A stretch of 64,000 nt of DNA. It comes from an uncultured delta proteobacterium. GTDB taxonomy: Bacteria; Desulfobacterota; Binatia; Binatales; Binataceae. A program made the translations under genes and the position numbers. Position 1 is the first letter of the stretch. Each line of letters starts with the position of its first letter. Below, one piece after another: positions 34,458-49,583 of this stretch. A model generated the notes under the pieces. That model had not been told where the DNA came from. It was given only the letters and a program-made list of their open reading frames with translations, and made no database searches. The stretch is from positions 2,161,776-2,225,775 of the forward strand of contig CAVOUW010000003.1 of the NCBI GenBank assembly GCA_963699705.1, given 5' to 3'.

Positions 34458-34539
34458 CCGGTTCGGGCTTGCGCCCGGAATGACTGTCGGCGATTTTTTT
34501 CCTGGCTCATGAATCTCACATAATCCTATCTGCGTCCCG

Positions 34540-43366: not shown

Positions 43367-43376
43367 CTGTCACCAA

Positions 43377-43430
43377 GGTGCAGGGGTTACCCCTGCCGAA
43401 GGAAGTTTGAAACCCACCGCGGGTTTCAAA
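43377..43430 (-). repeat. family 1 repeat, copy E (reverse orientation)
   Basis: Its reverse complement is TTTGAAACCCGCGGTGGGTTTCAAACTTCCTTCGGCAGGGGTAACCCCTGCACC. It sits between the convergent atpE and Smr genes. Confidence 0.8.
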
Positions 43431-43452
43431 TTAAATTGCTAAAGTTCCACGC

Positions 43453-44448: not shown

Positions 44449-46983
44449 ATGCGCCGTGTCATCGTAATTGCCGCCGCAATTGTCGGAGCCATCGTGATTT
44501 TCGCCGGCGCGATCCTCTTCTACGCCGCCACCAACTTAAATTCGATTATCGCCGAGCGCCGCCAGACCATCCTCGACAAGGTCAGCACCGCGCTCGGCCG
44601 TCAGGTGCACGCCGACGACATCAAGGTGACCTTGGGTTGGGGAATCCTGGCCGACGTGACCGGCGTGCAGGTCGCCGACGACCCGGACATCTCGAAAAAA
44701 CCGTTTATCGAGGCGAGCAACGTTTACACCCGTCTGCAACTGATGCCGCTGCTGGCGCGCCGGATCGAAGTCACCGAGGTGGTCCTCGACAAACCGGTCA
44801 TCCGAATCGTCCAGACTCGCGACGGCACCTTCAATGTCTCGACTCTCGGCCGCAAAAAGGTCCACACCGAAGAGCAGTCGCAGCCCGGCGAGGGCGGCGG
44901 CGGGGGCGGCGAGAACCAGGAGTCGCCGATGGCGGAAGCGGGCAAGGCGCCCGCAACCCTCGGCTCGCTGCAGGTGCAGAACTTTTCGATCAACGACGGC
45001 ACTTTGACCTATGAGACGGAAGGCAAGCCGGAAAGCGCGACCGTCAACGCGATCAACCTCAAGCTGCGCGATTTCGTCTTCAACGCCCAGTTCACCATCG
45101 ACCTAACCTTCGCCGCGCTGAGCGATCAACAGAACTTCGATCTGTCGGCGACGATTGGCCCGCTGATCAACAACGGCGTGATCGATATCGACGTGATCCC
45201 CATCTCCGGCAAAGCCAAGGTCGGCCCGATTCTGCTGACGCAGTTAAAAACGATCCCGATGCTCGCGGACGTGATTCCGCCGAAGCTTTCGATTTCCGGC
45301 CCGATCGCCTTCGACGCCAGCGCTGACGGCACCGTTCACTCGATCAAATTCAACGCCTCGAGCGATTTGAGCGCGCCCGCAATCGCGTTTGGCGACACCT
45401 TCACCAAGCCCGCCGACACGCCGCTGAAAATTGATGCCGAGGGTTCGCGCACCGACTCGGTCGTGACGGTGACGCTCGCCAACATCACCGCCGGCGACCT
45501 GGAAGCCAAGGCGACGGATATCAAAATCGGCGGCGGCACGACCGCGGCGCACGTTGATAGCAACAATTTCGACATCGCTTCGCTTGCGAAAATGATTCCG
45601 GCGCTCGGCAAGTACAATGTCGCGGGCAAAACCGAGATTCATACCAGCGCGACGCTTGCGGACGGCAAGGTCTCCGCAGACGGCACGGTCGCGCTCGCCG
45701 GCGTCGGGTTGTCGATACCCGATCATAAGGCGCCGCCGTTGAGTAATCTAAGCGGGAACATCAAGCTCGAAGGAACTGGCGCCGACGTTGGACCGCTGAC
45801 GTTTAATATCGGCCCGCAGCAGGCGACGTTGAAGTCGCACATCGATCAGTTCCAGCCGCTGGTCATGAGCTACGAGCTGAATGCGGCCTCGGTGCGTCTC
45901 GCGGATCTCGTGCCCTCGCGTCCGCCCGACGAGGTTATCAACCAGCTTTTCGCCAAGGGTTCTGCCTCGACTGGCGCGAAGAACGTCAACACGATTGAGT
46001 CTCAAATCACTTCGCCGTCGGGCAACCTCGGCGGCGTTCCGTACCAGAACCTGGACTTGGCGGTGTCGCTGCAGGACAAATTCGCGCGCGTTGCCCGGCT
46101 CAAGCTGAAGGCGTTCTCGGGAGACATCGTCGCCACCGGAAGCACGCAACTCGAGCCCTCGGCGCCGATGCAAGCCTCGATCAGTTTCACCAATCTCGAT
46201 ATTCAGCAGGCGCTCGACTCGCAAAAATCCAAGGCCGCCGGCACTGTTCGCGGCACGCTCGGTGGAAATATCAAGGTCAGCGGAAAAACCGGCACGTTCG
46301 AGGAGATGAAGCCGACGCTCCGGGGCAACGGCAATCTCACGCTGACTAACGGCAAGCTGGTCGGCGTCAACGTCGGCGGACAGGCGCTCAGCAAGGTGCA
46401 GAACCTTCCCGCGATCGGCAACCTGGTGCCGGATGCCGTCGTCAAGAATCATCCGGAGCTTTTCAGCAATCCCGACACCGACATCCAGCTCGCGAGTCTG
46501 ACCTTCGTGCTCGAAGGTCCGCGAATCACGTCGCACGACATCAAGGTGCAGACCGTCGATTACAATCTGCTCGGCGACGGATGGTTCGACATGGACAAAA
46601 ATATCGATCTCGCCGCGCGAATCGTGCTCTCGCCACAATTCAGCAAGGAGCTGATCGAGCAGAAGAAGGAAGTCGCGTTCATCGCAAATAAGGACGGACA
46701 GATTGACGTCCCGTTGCAAGTCGTCGGCCAATTGCCCAAGCCGCAAGTGCTGCCCAACGTGACCGAACTGGCGCAACGCGCCGGAACTCACGCCATGCAG
46801 GCGCAAGGTCAGAAATATCTAGGCAAAGTCTTCGGCAAAAAAGGCCTGCCCGGAGGTTTGGACAAATTTCTCGGCGGCGGCTCCGGCAGCGACGGCTCAG
46901 GCAACGGGTCCGGCAACGGCAATGCCGGAGGCAACTCGAATCCACCGCCGAACCCACTGGACACTCTGAAAAAGTTGTTTTGA
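44449..46983 (+). CDS. AsmA-family outer-membrane biogenesis protein
   Basis: 844 aa. An N-terminal TM (VIVIAAAIVGAIVIFAGAILFYA), a long repetitive beta-rich body and an AsmA-like C-terminus. Confidence 0.8.
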   Translation: MRRVIVIAAAIVGAIVIFAGAILFYAATNLNSIIAERRQTILDKVSTALGRQVHADDIKVTLGWGILADVTGVQVADDPDISKKPFIEASNVYTRLQLMPLLARRIEVTEVVLDKPVIRIVQTRDGTFNVSTLGRKKVHTEEQSQPGEGGGGGGENQESPMAEAGKAPATLGSLQVQNFSINDGTLTYETEGKPESATVNAINLKLRDFVFNAQFTIDLTFAALSDQQNFDLSATIGPLINNGVIDIDVIPISGKAKVGPILLTQLKTIPMLADVIPPKLSISGPIAFDASADGTVHSIKFNASSDLSAPAIAFGDTFTKPADTPLKIDAEGSRTDSVVTVTLANITAGDLEAKATDIKIGGGTTAAHVDSNNFDIASLAKMIPALGKYNVAGKTEIHTSATLADGKVSADGTVALAGVGLSIPDHKAPPLSNLSGNIKLEGTGADVGPLTFNIGPQQATLKSHIDQFQPLVMSYELNAASVRLADLVPSRPPDEVINQLFAKGSASTGAKNVNTIESQITSPSGNLGGVPYQNLDLAVSLQDKFARVARLKLKAFSGDIVATGSTQLEPSAPMQASISFTNLDIQQALDSQKSKAAGTVRGTLGGNIKVSGKTGTFEEMKPTLRGNGNLTLTNGKLVGVNVGGQALSKVQNLPAIGNLVPDAVVKNHPELFSNPDTDIQLASLTFVLEGPRITSHDIKVQTVDYNLLGDGWFDMDKNIDLAARIVLSPQFSKELIEQKKEVAFIANKDGQIDVPLQVVGQLPKPQVLPNVTELAQRAGTHAMQAQGQKYLGKVFGKKGLPGGLDKFLGGGSGSDGSGNGSGNGNAGGNSNPPPNPLDTLKKLF

Positions 46984-46989
46984 TTTTTG

Positions 46990-47177
46990 TGTCATCCCGA
47001 GCGCAGCCGAGGGACCCCGGATCTTTCACGACGCCGGAAGATGCACCCTAACCACGCATCGAGAGATCTCTTTGGCACTCTCCCTCTTTAGGGAGCATCT
47101 CGATCGCTCCATGGTTGAGGGTGCGTCGGCGAGCGTTCAGAAAGATCCGGGGTCCCTCGGCTACGCTCGGGATGACA
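46990..47177. repeat. 188-bp nested palindromic (MITE-like) element
   Basis: 38-bp terminal inverted repeats TGTCATCCCGAGCGCAGCCGAGGGACCCCGGATCTTTC / GAAAGATCCGGGGTCCCTCGGCTACGCTCGGGATGACA (1 mismatch). Inner inverted repeats GCACCCTAACCA…TGGTTGAGGGTGC and a central CTCCCTctttAGGGAG. It lies between the convergent asmA and mutS2 genes. Confidence 0.8.
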
Positions 47178-47246
47178 CAAGAAAAAGATGGCACAAAAGA
47201 AAGATCACACCGGAAAACGGACTACAACGCGACGCCACCCACCGCA

Positions 47247-49583
47247 CTACAAATTCATCTGCACGATCGTTGCGCCCGCGCCACCATGATGCGGTTCGGC
47301 GCCGCGGAATGACGCGCAGTATGGCGACGTGCCCAGGTATTCGGCGACGGCCTTGCGCAGCGCGCCCGATCCAATCCCATGGACAATCCGCACTTCCGCG
47401 CGATTTGTCAGGAACGCATTGTCGAGGAACTCCTCGAGCTTGCGCAGTGCGTCCGTCGTGCGCATCCCAATCAGATTCAACTCGTTGCGCTCCTCGCCCT
47501 CGACGCTGTAAGTGACCGCCGCCTCCTTTGCCCGCGCCGGACGAAGTTCGGACACACTGGCCGCCGACCTGCGCAATCGCTCAGGTGCTACTTCGATCCT
47601 CAAACCGCCCCGGCTTATCACGGCGCGTCCCGGTTCGAGCACGATAAGTTCGCCGCGGATGTCGCCGACCTCGACGCTATCGCCGACCTTCAAAGGCGCG
47701 TCGGACTCAGATGCGCCTTCGGGCGCCGGCGCGAGGCTTTCGAGTTTCGCCGACGCCTGGGTGAGGAACCCTTTCAAGTCGGTGCGCGATTTCGTCCGCG
47801 ATTTTAGCTCGTCCATCAGCGCGGCACCGTCGCGCTTGATCTCCTCGATCAACTCTGCGACCTCAGCCCGCAGCCGTTTGCGTTCTAGCTCCACGCGCTC
47901 GCGAGTTTTTTCCGCTCTCTGCAAGACATCCTGCTCGGTCTGAGCCAGGTTCAGCTCGTGCTCGCGCAATTTTTCGAGCTGGGCATTGAGCTTCGCGCGC
48001 TCCGCGTCCAATCTCTTCAGCGTGTCGGTGAGCTCGATCGTCCCGGCGCCCATCGATTGCTCGGCGGCGCGGATTATTTCCTCGGGCAGCCCCAGCCGTC
48101 GCGCGACCGCGAGTCCGTAACTCTGCCCGATCGTATGCGGCTTCAAACGATACAACGGTGCGAGGTGTTCGGCGTCGAAATCCACTGCGGCCGCCTCGAA
48201 ACCGGCCTGCGAGTATGCGTGCAGTTTCACCGCGGTCGAATGCGTCGCGATCGCCAGCATGCAGCGCCGCGTCCCGAGATGGTCCATCAAGCCGATCGCC
48301 AGCGCCGCGCCTTCGGCCGGGTCGGTGCCCGCGCCCGGCTCGTCGAGAATCACCAGCGCCGGCTCGACCAGCGAACGGATTATCTCGGACAAGTTTGCGA
48401 TATGCCCAGAAAAGCTCGACAGGTTGGATTCGATAGACTGCTCGTCGCCGATATCGGCGAACACGCTGCGAAACACCGTCGCCTTGCTGCCGGCGAGCGC
48501 CGGAATCAGGAGGCCCGCCTGCGCCATCAACGACAGCAGACCGACCGTCTTGAGCGCGACCGTCTTGCCGCCGGTGTTCGGCCCCGAGATGACGATGCCG
48601 CGCTGGCCGGCGCCGATTTTCACGTCGATCGGAATCACGTCGCGGCCGCTGGTCATCAGCAGCGGATGCCGCGCGCCGATAAAATCGATTCCCTCATCGA
48701 CCAGCTGCGGCTCGACACATCGAAACCGCTCGGCGAAAAGCGCGCGCGCGTTGAGCGCGTCGATCGCGACCATTGCATCGAACGTGAGCTGCAACTCCGG
48801 CGCGTATCCGCCGACCATCGCGGTCAGCCGCGCGAGGATTCGCGTTTCTTCCGCCTCCGCCTCGCGCTCGAGCATCATTAGGCGGTTGTTCAGCTCGACC
48901 GCCCACATCGGCTCAACGAATAATGTTTCACCAGAAACGCTGCGGTCCTGCACGATTCCCTCGAACCGCTCCGAGTAGTTCAGCTTCATCGGCAGCACGA
49001 AGCGGCGGTTGCGAATCGTCACGAGGTAATCGGAAACGAACGATTCCATGCCCGACGCGTTGAGCGAACGCAGCAGCCGCGCTTCGAGTTCCGCGCGCTC
49101 ATCACGCAGCCGGCTGCGCAGCTTCTTCAGTTCAGGGCTCGCGTCGTCGAGTAGTGTGCCGTCGTCAGCCAGCGCACTTAGCATCGCGTCAGCGAGTTCC
49201 TTCGGCGCGAGCAGGTTATGTACGAGCGCCGCGACACTGGAAAAGCGCTCGACGCGCGATCGCAAAAATCCACTGACGTGTCGCGATCCCACGATAAAAT
49301 CGCGCACCTTCACCAGCGCTTCGCCGCCGAGAATCGCACCGACGCGCGCCGCCGCGAGCAGGTACGGCCGCTGATCGGTAAACTCGTTTATCGGAATCGA
49401 TCCGGCATGCGATCGCAGCTCGACCATCTCCGCGGTCGCGGTCAGCCGCCGCTGCACCTCGACTGTGTCGATCGACGGGCGCAACTCAGCAGTCGCCTCG
49501 CGCCCCGGTTCCGAGGCGCAAAGCTCCATGACGAGGTGAATCACCTTGTCGAATTCGAGTGCTTTCAGATCGCGTTCGCGCAT
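47247..49583 (-). CDS. mutS2: endonuclease MutS2
   Basis: 778 aa. GPNTGGKTVALKTVGL (Walker A), DEPGAGTDP, a long coiled-coil region and a C-terminal Smr (RIVHGIGSGALR). Confidence 0.9.
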   Translation of the reverse strand: MRERDLKALEFDKVIHLVMELCASEPGREATAELRPSIDTVEVQRRLTATAEMVELRSHAGSIPINEFTDQRPYLLAAARVGAILGGEALVKVRDFIVGSRHVSGFLRSRVERFSSVAALVHNLLAPKELADAMLSALADDGTLLDDASPELKKLRSRLRDERAELEARLLRSLNASGMESFVSDYLVTIRNRRFVLPMKLNYSERFEGIVQDRSVSGETLFVEPMWAVELNNRLMMLEREAEAEETRILARLTAMVGGYAPELQLTFDAMVAIDALNARALFAERFRCVEPQLVDEGIDFIGARHPLLMTSGRDVIPIDVKIGAGQRGIVISGPNTGGKTVALKTVGLLSLMAQAGLLIPALAGSKATVFRSVFADIGDEQSIESNLSSFSGHIANLSEIIRSLVEPALVILDEPGAGTDPAEGAALAIGLMDHLGTRRCMLAIATHSTAVKLHAYSQAGFEAAAVDFDAEHLAPLYRLKPHTIGQSYGLAVARRLGLPEEIIRAAEQSMGAGTIELTDTLKRLDAERAKLNAQLEKLREHELNLAQTEQDVLQRAEKTRERVELERKRLRAEVAELIEEIKRDGAALMDELKSRTKSRTDLKGFLTQASAKLESLAPAPEGASESDAPLKVGDSVEVGDIRGELIVLEPGRAVISRGGLRIEVAPERLRRSAASVSELRPARAKEAAVTYSVEGEERNELNLIGMRTTDALRKLEEFLDNAFLTNRAEVRIVHGIGSGALRKAVAEYLGTSPYCASFRGAEPHHGGAGATIVQMNL

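What the first reader, a model, noticed from the sequence alone, without database searches (positions are those of the whole stretch)
46990..47177. 188-bp element with nested inverted repeats between asmA and mutS2
38-bp near-perfect terminal inverted repeats (TGTCATCCCGAGCGCAGCCGAGGGACCCCGGATCTTTC) enclose inner inverted repeats and a central CTCCCTctttAGGGAG. The whole unit can fold into one long imperfect hairpin. It is either a MITE or a structured ncRNA. The terminal-repeat sequence resembles a class of abundant but uncharacterised repeats in soil-bacterial genomes, which often get mis-annotated as short hypothetical proteins (here as …DPGSLGYARDDT… in ORFs 46679..47029 and 47072..47515).
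Basis: partly seen in the sequence, partly recalled or inferred. Interest (0 to 1): 0.5.

Follow-up and report, generated by a model that had tools for sequence, protein, structure and literature searches.

The report
Paired Ssn-nuclease target repeats (SRM doublet)
The 188-bp palindrome between asmA and mutS2 is a head-to-head pair of a known repeat, the DNA motif recognised by the small Ssn family of single-strand DNA nucleases; it is a new example of a system described in 2025, not a new kind of element.

Summary
Window 46984-47183 is a long imperfect palindrome. Its 38-nt ends differ at one base, and it folds far better than shuffles on both strands.

It is not a private palindrome. The arm occurs in 16 stretches from at least 11 different Candidatus Binatus/Binataceae MAGs, as solo arms, as ~190-bp inverted doublets, and as ~510-bp units. 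In the 510-bp units the same two arms enclose a 96-aa GIY-YIG gene.

In 80 metagenome loci encoding relatives of that gene, the arm core (GTCATCCYGAGCGNAGC) is about 29-fold enriched within 400 bp of the gene.

The protein is 51% identical to the Neisseria gonorrhoeae SsnA orthologue, which is flanked by canonical NTS repeats. This is the published Ssn/SRM system (Chenal 2025, PMC11893778); the repeats belong to the CGTC/TGTC-tagged REP superfamily (Di Nocera 2013, PMC3733652).

The window element is an ORF-less, REPIN/MITE-like doublet. It has no target-site duplication, no Rfam match and no strand asymmetry.

The arms miss the published SRM search string by one base, and a single arm folds only weakly.

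Verdict: new member of a known kind; modest interest.

The parts
46984..47183 (.). Whole element: a head-to-head (tags outward) doublet of two SRM-type repeats with an imperfectly palindromic interior
   Evidence: Inverted arms of 66 nt at 85% complementarity. Folds at z about -15 as RNA on both strands and as ssDNA. Homologous doublets occur in L006, L008, L010, L012 and L014.
46986..47029 (+). Left arm. About 44 nt are conserved in the family (TTGT-GTCATCCCGAGCG-N-AGCCGAGGGACCCCGGATCTTT). The SRM core is at 46990-47016.
   Evidence: At least 90% conserved over 29 distinct arm copies, except the N position. Exact core match. One substitution away from the published SRM search string.
47138..47181 (-). 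Right arm: the same 44-nt unit on the minus strand. The SRM core is at 47151-47177, with T at the variable N position.
47030..47137 (.). Interior: a variable, imperfectly palindromic spacer whose two halves differ. The apical stem-loop CTCCCT-cttt-AGGGAG is at 47080-47095.
   Evidence: Shared only with L008, at 72.5%. The left and right halves are distinct, and that asymmetry is kept in L008. No ssn remnant was found (tblastn).
47187..47198 (-). Partial extra copy of the 5' tag region (GATGGCACAAAA, the reverse complement of TTTTGTGCCATC), just outside the right arm
   Evidence: Inverted-repeat pair I4. Similar partial tag copies lie outside arms in L002, L007, L011 and L016. Unexplained.
44449..46983 (+). 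Context: AsmA-family gene. Its stop codon directly abuts the element.
   Evidence: Pfam AsmA/DUF748/YhdP.
47247..49583 (-). Context: mutS2, convergent with asmA. It has a weak terminator-like site of its own at 47252-47222.
   Evidence: Pfam MutS_V plus Smr. 93% identical to Binatus MutS2 proteins. Terminator scan.

Best explanation
The element is a head-to-head pair of Ssn-related motifs (SRM, NTS-like; CGTC/TGTC-tagged REP superfamily). These are the repeats recognised, as single-stranded DNA, by the roughly 95-aa single-domain GIY-YIG nucleases of the Ssn family. In related Candidatus Binatus genomes the same two arms enclose the ssn gene itself (SRM-ssn-SRM). The window copy is an ORF-less, REPIN/NIME/MITE-like doublet of that module. 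It sits in the tolerated spacer between two convergent genes and has probably been inherited vertically there for a long time.

How it would work is inferred from the Neisseria enzyme. When the locus is single-stranded (replication, repair, incoming transforming or conjugative DNA), each strand carries one arm in the cleavable orientation at its 5' end. Ssn binds the interrupted palindrome and the C after it, and nicks a few nucleotides 5' of the GTC tag, at the two outer borders of the unit. The consequence would be restriction or trimming of ssDNA, and possibly spread of the unit.

Shown here: family membership of the arms, their physical association with ssn genes, homology of that protein to Neisseria SsnA, and the existence of an ORF-less derivative beside a full unit in one MAG. 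Inferred: cleavage by a Binatus Ssn, any mobility, and any effect on asmA or mutS2 transcripts.
For: - Arm distribution: the arm 34-mer occurs in 16 stretches from at least 11 different Binatus/Binataceae MAGs. Copies are solo arms, ~190-bp doublets and ~510-bp units.
- Arms flank a nuclease gene: in L001, L015 and L016 the arms flank a 96-aa ORF. It matches Pfam GIY-YIG at E 1.5e-16.
- Association in a wider sample: across 80 metagenome loci with relatives of that ORF, the core motif occurs at 2.05/kb within 400 bp of the gene and 0.072/kb further away. 51/80 loci have at least one nearby motif and 29/80 have one on both sides. A reversed control motif gave 0 hits against 141. The paper reports 71% and 42% (PMC11893778).
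- Homology to SsnA: the Binatus protein is 51% identical (E 7e-28) to a 94-aa N. gonorrhoeae ORF that carries Y6, Y17 and E64 and is flanked by canonical NTS pairs. Y11, Y21 and E68 are invariant in the alignment.
- Arm features: TGTC tag, AT/CCC...GGG interrupted palindrome, then C. The only variable core base is the N of GCG-N-AGC. These are the positions the paper found to matter for cleavage and binding.
- ORF-less derivative: the L012 doublet equals the L015 unit minus its 333-bp ssn middle. Both are in the same MAG, on different contigs, with unrelated flanks.
- Constraint on arms: in the orthologous doublets L014 and L006 the arms have only 1-2 differences each. The interior differs at many more positions, and the 2.2-kb aligned region is 87% identical overall.
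Against: - The published degenerate SRM string gives 0 hits in the window. The arms need one substitution to match it.
- A single arm is predicted to fold only weakly as ssDNA (-2.2 to -2.7 kcal/mol, no better than shuffles). The Neisseria NTS folds at -8.9 kcal/mol, z -3.9.
- In ssDNA the doublet would fold arm against arm. That would make the motifs double-stranded, a form SsnA does not cut.
- No ssn gene lies in the 64-kb window, and the copy number in this genome is unknown.
- No empty site with clean borders was found.
- No Binatus Ssn has been assayed.
Confidence: 0.8

Rival explanations
1. A classical MITE: a deletion derivative of an insertion sequence, moved by a DDE-type transposase that binds the terminal inverted repeats and makes a target-site duplication.
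For: Long terminal inverted repeats, small size, intergenic position, dispersed copies in unrelated contexts. An ORF-carrying relative with the same ends exists.
Against: No direct flank duplication in 8 units: the longest shared flank words are 3-4 nt in seven of them, and the window's 7-nt GAAAAAG sits at unequal offsets. The only gene enclosed by the arms is a 96-aa single-domain GIY-YIG nuclease. Among 88 ORFs within 1.5 kb of arms no family recurs in more than 3, and the 25 families listed (of 69 found) are all housekeeping. Orthologous copies are old and conserved rather than recent.
Confidence: 0.04
2. Mainly an RNA element: a structured ncRNA, or a bidirectional terminator or 3'-end stabilising hairpin for the convergent asmA and mutS2 transcripts.
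For: Very stable hairpin on both strands. It lies directly after the asmA stop codon and between convergent genes. L014 and L006 sit in the same kind of position. REPs in general are enriched in such positions and are thought to be transcribed (PMC3733652).
Against: No Rfam family at gathering or permissive thresholds. No T-run follows the hairpin on either strand, and the terminator scan does not call it. Arms occur as solo copies, direct repeats, tandem arrays and in both orientations relative to genes. With three sequences, only 6 of 72 pairs show a two-sided change, all in the poorly aligned centre. Neisseria SsnA does not bind RNA. A secondary effect on mRNA 3' ends is not excluded.
Confidence: 0.1
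3. A REPIN in the strict sense: a REP doublet mobilised by a RAYT (a Y1 tyrosine transposase of the IS200/IS605 type).
For: Same architecture as REPINs: two inverted REP-like units forming a long hairpin, vertically inherited, with the arms more conserved than the spacer (PMC3337134 abstract).
Against: The tag is TGTC, not GTAG. CGTC/TGTC REPs were reported to lack an associated tyrosine transposase (PMC3733652). The gene flanked by these arms is GIY-YIG. No recurrent transposase was found near arms; however, only the top 25 of 69 families were listed, so a single RAYT cannot be excluded.
Confidence: 0.03
4. A private local palindrome with no relatives.
For: Only one copy lies in the 64-kb window.
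Against: Homologous arms and doublets occur in many genomes and contexts.
Confidence: 0

Closest known systems
NTS/SRM repeats with the SsnA (Ssn family, cd10448) GIY-YIG ssDNA nuclease: Chenal et al., Nat Commun 2025 (PMC11893778)
   Same: - 5' HGTC tag, followed by a palindrome starting AT, with a C after the palindrome.
- Repeats flank a roughly 95-aa single-domain GIY-YIG gene. The association frequency here (64% any, 36% both sides) is close to the published 71% and 42%.
- The protein is 51% identical to the gonococcal SsnA orthologue, with the catalytic Tyr/Tyr/Glu conserved.
- Repeats also occur as inverted pairs of about 180 bp next to ssnA in Neisseria.
   Different: - Host phylum is Binatota, as judged from the MAG titles.
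- The palindrome is interrupted (TCCC-GA-GC-GNA-GC-C-GA-GGGA) and predicted to be weak.
- The arm carries an extra conserved 3' extension (CCCCGGATCTTT), giving about 44 conserved nt.
- It misses the published search string by one base.
- In Binatus the gene lies inside a doublet (up+/dn-), whereas the gonococcal gene lies between doublets.
- No biochemical or genetic data exist for this lineage.
CGTC/TGTC-tagged REP superfamily and its head-to-head dimers, including Neisseria dRS3: Di Nocera et al. 2013 (PMC3733652)
   Same: Unpaired terminal CGTC or TGTC tag. A/T at the first stem positions in the non-Binatus variants (ATCCC...GGGAT). A short C-rich tail. Predominantly head-to-head dimers. 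Location between convergent ORFs.
   Different: The described families have clean 8-9 bp stems and 4-5 nt loops. Here the stem is 4-5 bp plus an interrupted inner part. That paper found no associated enzyme.
REPIN-RAYT systems (Bertels and Rainey 2011; PMC3116915, PMC3337134)
   Same: Doublets of inverted short palindromic repeats forming a long hairpin. A small nuclease-type gene is flanked by the same repeats. Inheritance is vertical and arm sequences persist.
   Different: The enzyme is a GIY-YIG nuclease, not a HUH/Y1 transposase. The tag is TGTC, not GTAG. Mobility is not demonstrated for either the Neisseria or the Binatus system.
Bacterial MITEs
   Same: Size, terminal inverted repeats, intergenic location, and derivation from a longer ORF-carrying unit by internal deletion (L012 against L015).
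   Different: No target-site duplication. No DDE transposase partner.

Membership tests
SRM / NTS-like repeats (Ssn-related motifs, PMC11893778) | Oriented, unpaired 5' tag HGTC followed by W-Y at the start of the palindrome | tested here: met
   TGTC-AT in both window arms and in all 29 distinct arms.
SRM / NTS-like repeats (Ssn-related motifs, PMC11893778) | Match to the published degenerate search string HGTCWYN(0-2)YYVSBRHN(0-5)WNVSBRGN(0-2)RNCYNB | tested here: not met
   0 hits in the window, while the canonical NTS matches as a positive control. Both arms match with exactly one substitution: an A where the string requires B.
SRM / NTS-like repeats (Ssn-related motifs, PMC11893778) | Each unit forms a hairpin (20-50 nt inverted repeat) | tested here: inconclusive
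   A single arm folds at -2.2 to -2.7 kcal/mol as ssDNA, no better than shuffles; the NTS folds at -8.9, z -3.9. A 4-5 bp outer stem plus a GC-GNA-GC inner hairpin can be drawn, and the only variable base is the middle loop base. The energy model does not credit G-A pairs.
SRM / NTS-like repeats (Ssn-related motifs, PMC11893778) | Cytosine immediately 3' of the palindrome (most important base for SsnA binding) | tested here: met
   GGGA-CC in Binatus arms and GGGAT-C in other taxa.
SRM / NTS-like repeats (Ssn-related motifs, PMC11893778) | Physical association with ssn genes, often on both sides | tested here: met
   L001, L015 and L016. 51/80 and 29/80 loci; about 29-fold local enrichment; reversed control 0 against 141.
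SRM / NTS-like repeats (Ssn-related motifs, PMC11893778) | Strand-specific cleavage of ssDNA a few nt 5' of the motif by the cognate Ssn | not testable with these tools
   Needs a nuclease assay.
SRM / NTS-like repeats (Ssn-related motifs, PMC11893778) | Many copies per genome, in a genome that also encodes Ssn | tested here: inconclusive
   One doublet in 64 kb and no ssn gene in the window. There are 1-2 stretches with an exact 34-mer match per MAG. Whole genomes could not be scanned.
Ssn nuclease family (cd10448), for the protein enclosed by the arms in L001/L015/L016 | Single-domain GIY-YIG protein of about 94-100 aa | tested here: met
   96 aa; PF01541 covers residues 8-80, E 1.5e-16.
Ssn nuclease family (cd10448), for the protein enclosed by the arms in L001/L015/L016 | Homology to characterised Neisseria SsnA, with Y6/Y17/E64 equivalents | tested here: met
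   51% identity over 85 aa, E 7e-28, to the 94-aa gonococcal ORF flanked by NTS. Y11, Y21 and E68 are invariant in 16 homologues.
Ssn nuclease family (cd10448), for the protein enclosed by the arms in L001/L015/L016 | CDD assignment to cd10448 rather than UPF0213 or other GIY-YIG groups | not testable with these tools
   No CDD is available. The nearest solved structure is UPF0213 BH0048, at only E 3e-4.
CGTC-tagged REP superfamily (PMC3733652) | Terminal CGTC (or TGTC/CCTC) tag, and head-to-head dimers predominant | tested here: met
   TGTC tag. All 8 paired units in the Binatus loci are tags-outward pairs; the other loci carry solo arms or same-orientation arrays.
CGTC-tagged REP superfamily (PMC3733652) | Stem of 8-9 bp and loop of 4-5 nt | tested here: not met
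   The outer stem is only 4-5 bp and is interrupted.
Classical MITE | Target-site duplication of fixed length | tested here: not met
   8 units examined, no consistent direct flank repeat.
Classical MITE | Same ends as an autonomous element that encodes a transposase | tested here: inconclusive
   The same ends enclose ssn, but Ssn is not a demonstrated transposase.
REPIN-RAYT | GTAG-tagged REPs and a flanked Y1 transposase gene | tested here: not met
   The tag is TGTC. The flanked gene is GIY-YIG. No recurrent transposase was found among 88 neighbouring ORFs.
Any Rfam RNA family | Covariance-model match | tested here: not met
   No hit at gathering score in the window; only chance-level hits at E up to 10.

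The most novel reading that the evidence does not exclude
The SRM-ssn-SRM unit is a still-active mobile element in which the 96-aa GIY-YIG nuclease acts as a single-strand DNA transposase, and ORF-less doublets such as the one in this window are its non-autonomous MITE/REPIN-like passengers. The Ssn paper raises the IS-like architecture only as a hypothesis. Observations here that fit, but do not prove it:
- A full unit and a derivative that has lost the 333 bp spanning the ssn ORF sit on different contigs of one MAG.
- Doublets of one subfamily lie in unrelated contexts.
- The cleavable orientation on each strand places both predicted nicks at the outer borders of the unit.
- Partial tag duplications occur just outside the arms.
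Probability: 0.2. Interest if true: 0.7.

Novelty: new member of a known kind. Interest (0 to 1): 0.3.

Why it matters
For annotation, this resolves a recurrent feature of Binatus and other soil-bacterial genomes. The KDPGSLG(C/Y)ARDDT-type short ORFs are read-through of SRM repeats and should not be called genes.

For biology, it extends the Ssn/SRM pairing to the uncultured phylum Binatota. This variant has a weak, interrupted palindrome and a longer conserved arm, and it escapes the published search string. Counts of SRM-bearing genomes made with that string are therefore probably underestimates.

The L012/L015 pair gives a concrete case for testing whether these units move.

Each new nuclease-motif pair is also a candidate site-specific ssDNA cutter, which is the applied interest of the family.

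Tried and rejected
- Rfam, at gathering and permissive thresholds: nothing.
- Other copies in the window: none. Loose 13-mer matches are at chance level.
- An empty site at the orthologous asmA-mutS2 spacer in five Binatus relatives: the spacer is too diverged for clean borders.
  - B. soli (L036/L037) has a 30-bp spacer with no element and a shorter AsmA tail.
  - L034/L035 carry a 54-nt hairpin, CGTCATCCTGA...AGGATGACG.
  - L033 keeps a decayed right arm.
- Target-site duplication: none.
- A full-length parent for the window's own subfamily: not found. The interior matches only L008.
- Covariation in the long hairpin: with three homologous doublets, only 6 of 72 pairs show two-sided changes, all in the poorly aligned centre. 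This is not informative.
- P0026 'on 24 contigs' as a sign of many copies: it is the same locus recovered in many samples.
- Literature searches combining GIY-YIG with MITE, repetitive extragenic palindromic, YhbQ, or REPIN/RAYT: nothing relevant. COG2827 alone gave only one tangential paper, noting three small COG2827 genes in Caulobacter. 'CGTC' plus 'GIY-YIG' found the Ssn paper.
- My interim idea of an unreported GIY-YIG analogue of REPIN-RAYT: dropped as a novelty claim, because the Ssn paper already reports the association and the IS-like architecture.
- Recurrent transposases near arms: none among the listed families.
- PDB: only a distant UPF0213 match.

Full report
**Observation.**
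- Window 46984-47049 and 47118-47183 are inverted arms of 66 nt, 85% complementary.
- The outer 38 nt (46990-47027, and the reverse complement of 47140-47177) differ at one base.
- The centre holds CTCCCT-cttt-AGGGAG at 47080-47095.
- The 200-nt unit folds at -140.5 and -139 kcal/mol as RNA on the two strands, z about -15, and at -82.7 kcal/mol as ssDNA, z -15.3.
- It lies between the stop codon of an AsmA-family gene (44449-46983, +) and the 3' end of mutS2 (47247-49583, -).
They translate the arms as KDPGSLGCARDDT and KDPGSLGYARDDT and overlap the real genes on the opposite strand.

**It is a repeat family, not a private palindrome.** Only this one doublet is in the window, and Rfam has nothing.
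- The exact 34-mer of the arm occurs in 16 stretches of species-representative genomes, all Candidatus Binatus/Binataceae or 'delta proteobacterium' MAGs.
- The window's MutS2 is 93% identical to Binatus proteins.
- blastn and motif mapping show that the conserved unit is the arm. It occurs in three arrangements:
  - solo arms: L002, L003, L004, L005, L007, L009, L011, L013;
  - inverted pairs about 190 bp apart: L006, L008, L010, L012, L014, like the window;
  - inverted pairs about 510 bp apart: L001, L015.
- Over 29 distinct arms, about 44 nt are at least 90% conserved: TTGT-GTCATCCCGAGCG-N-AGCCGAGGGACCCCGGATCTTT. The only variable core base is N.
- Caveat: one arm per locus was selected by the exact search pattern. 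The partner arms were not.

**The arms flank a small nuclease gene.**
- In L001 and L015 the 510-bp units enclose a 96-aa ORF. In L016 the same gene is flanked by tandemly triplicated ends.
- The ORF matches Pfam GIY-YIG, residues 8-80, E 1.5e-16. It has more than 1,800 homologues, including ones from Acidobacteriota and Gemmatimonadota.
- I took 80 metagenome loci encoding relatives at 51-76% identity. The arm core GTCATCCYGAGCGNAGC (up to 2 mismatches) occurs at 2.05 per kb within 400 bp of the gene and 0.072 per kb further away.
- 51/80 loci have at least one nearby motif and 29/80 have one on both sides.
- The most frequent orientations are plus upstream (37) and minus downstream (37), i.e. 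tags outward. 16 loci have that pairing as the motifs nearest the gene.
- A reversed control motif gave 0 hits against 141.

**What is known.**
- Di Nocera et al. 2013 (PMC3733652) defined a superfamily of REPs with an unpaired CGTC (often TGTC) tag. Their stems begin with A-T pairs, they have a short C-rich tail, and they occur mostly as head-to-head dimers. No associated transposase was found.
- Chenal et al. 2025 (PMC11893778) showed that the Neisseria member (NTS, an extended dRS3) and its relatives (SRMs) flank a 94-aa single-domain GIY-YIG gene, ssnA.
  - SsnA binds the motif only as ssDNA and cuts a few nucleotides 5' of it, in a strand-specific way. It does not act on dsDNA or RNA.
  - The three bases before the palindrome matter for cutting, and the C after it matters for binding.
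  - The system lowers transformation by NTS-bearing DNA.
  - The authors note that NTS-ssnA-NTS looks like an insertion sequence.

**Tests of membership.**
- Protein: tblastn of the Binatus protein against PLSDB hit a gonococcal chromosome filed as a plasmid.
  - The ORF there is 94 aa with Y6, Y17 and E64, the residues mutated in the paper.
  - It is flanked by canonical NTS repeats arranged as plus/minus pairs 75-155 bp apart.
  - It is 51% identical to the Binatus protein, E 7e-28. The equivalent Tyr, Tyr and Glu are invariant in 16 homologues.
- Arms, features met: the TGTC tag, the AT start, CCC...GGG, and the following C.
- Arms, features not met:
  - The published degenerate SRM string does not match. 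It gives 0 hits in the window, with a positive control on the NTS, and the arms are one substitution away.
  - A single arm is predicted to fold only weakly (-2.2 to -2.7 kcal/mol, no better than shuffles) against -8.9 kcal/mol for the NTS.
- I therefore file the arms as a variant SRM, and the associated protein as an Ssn family member. CDD assignment was not testable.

**History of this locus.**
- Binatus soli has a 30-bp asmA-mutS2 spacer with no element, and a shorter AsmA tail (L036/L037).
- Two relatives carry a 54-nt hairpin with the same GTCATCC/GGATGAC ends (L034/L035).
- The closest relative keeps a decayed right arm next to an unrelated repeat (L033).
- There is no clean empty site and no target-site duplication. 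Across 8 units the longest direct flank match is 3-4 nt in seven of them.
- Elsewhere, L014 and L006 carry an orthologous doublet. Its arms have only 1-2 differences each, its interior differs at many more positions, and the 2.2-kb aligned region is 87% identical overall.
- These copies look old, vertically inherited and constrained in the arms.
- There is also evidence that units spread or duplicate:
  - The L012 doublet equals the two ends of the L015 unit (88-89% identity) without the 333-bp middle that holds ssn. Both are in the same MAG, on different contigs, with unrelated flanks.
  - The window, L008 and L010 doublets share a subfamily but not their context.

**Mechanism.**
- Shown:
  - the arms belong to the repeat class that flanks ssn genes;
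  - the enclosed protein is a close homologue of a biochemically characterised ssDNA nuclease;
  - ORF-less doublets coexist with full units.
- Inferred from the Neisseria work: when single-stranded, each strand of the doublet carries one arm in the cleavable orientation at its 5' side. A Binatus Ssn would then nick just outside both borders of the unit.
- Open question: in ssDNA the two arms pair with each other far more strongly than each folds alone. That would make the motifs double-stranded and, by the published specificity, not cuttable. Doublets may therefore be protected forms or replication intermediates rather than substrates.
- A secondary role as an RNA hairpin at the 3' ends of the two convergent mRNAs is possible. 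It is unsupported: there is no T-run and no terminator call.

**Rivals.**
- A DDE-type MITE is disfavoured. There is no duplication. Among 88 ORFs within 1.5 kb of arms no family recurs in more than 3, and the 25 families listed (of 69 found) are all housekeeping.
- A RAYT-driven REPIN is disfavoured. The tag is wrong and the flanked gene is GIY-YIG.
- An ncRNA has no positive evidence.
- A private palindrome is refuted.

**Verdict.** However, the class was described in 2013 and given its enzyme in 2025. This is a new member of a known kind, in a phylum where it had not been examined, and in a variant that escapes the published search string. Interest 0.3. The most novel reading still open is that Ssn units are active ssDNA transposons with doublets as passengers. 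I give this a probability of about 0.2.

Noticed in passing
window 43372-43436: Two adjacent small hairpins (GCAGGGGTTACCCCTGC and TTTGAAACCCACCGCGGGTTTCAAA) between two minus-strand ORFs. They are 90-93% identical to stretches in L006 301-357, L011 6000-6052 and L013 5255-5314, so this is another conserved Binatus intergenic repeat or terminator module.
   Followed up: no
L033 3870-3930; also L005 and L002 near their arms: A second, unrelated repeat family (..CCCTCACCTACCG-CCGCG-CGG..CTCTCCCGTAAGGTAACGGGCGAGG..) shares intergenic spacers with the SRM arms, including the orthologous asmA-mutS2 spacer of the closest relative.
   Followed up: no
L016 5239-6499: The ssn unit has both ends tandemly triplicated: three 175-bp copies of the 3' end plus arm, and three 210-bp copies of the arm plus the first ~27 codons of ssn. 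This is either an assembly artefact or repeated local duplication at the unit borders.
   Followed up: partly
L054 (68-bp period, 4 copies), L065 3480-4000 (79-bp period, 6 copies), L106, L127 (119-bp period, 5 copies): Tandem arrays of the SRM core in one orientation lie directly beside ssn genes in metagenome contigs. In L065 each unit is an SRM plus an AT-rich spacer.
   Followed up: partly
window 47187-47198; L002 upstream of 5014; L007 upstream of 3942; L011; L016 6490-6590: Short partial copies of the 5' tag region (TTGTGYCATC, sometimes with CCCGAG) are iterated just outside the arms, where Ssn would be expected to cut. They could be footprints of repeated nick repair. Unexplained.
   Followed up: partly
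window 34460-34486 (-): CAGTCATTCCGGGCGCAAGCCCGAACC is a solitary hairpin with an AGTC-AT start that resembles an SRM. It does not match the published string, and loose 13-mer matches in the window are at chance level.
   Followed up: no
L034 3955-4008 and L035 (orthologous asmA-mutS2 spacer): A 54-nt hairpin CGTCATCCTGACGG...GGAAGGATGACG sits where the window has the 188-bp doublet. It could be an internally deleted remnant or a different SRM variant.
   Followed up: partly
window 46873-46918: The AsmA C-terminus carries a Gly/Ser/Asn-rich tail encoded by a 12-15-nt imperfect tandem repeat. The tail is absent from the Binatus soli orthologue, which ends about 33 residues earlier.
   Followed up: no
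L128 (NZ_CP119140.1 1880787-1884041): PLSDB holds complete N. gonorrhoeae chromosomes (2.17 Mb) labelled as plasmids. This was useful here as a source of the ssnA locus, but it is a database mislabel.
   Followed up: no
L017 2904-2945 and 3297-3340: In this Binatus-like contig the two arms flanking ssn are in direct rather than inverted orientation, with a third decayed arm further downstream. The architecture around ssn is therefore not fixed.
   Followed up: no
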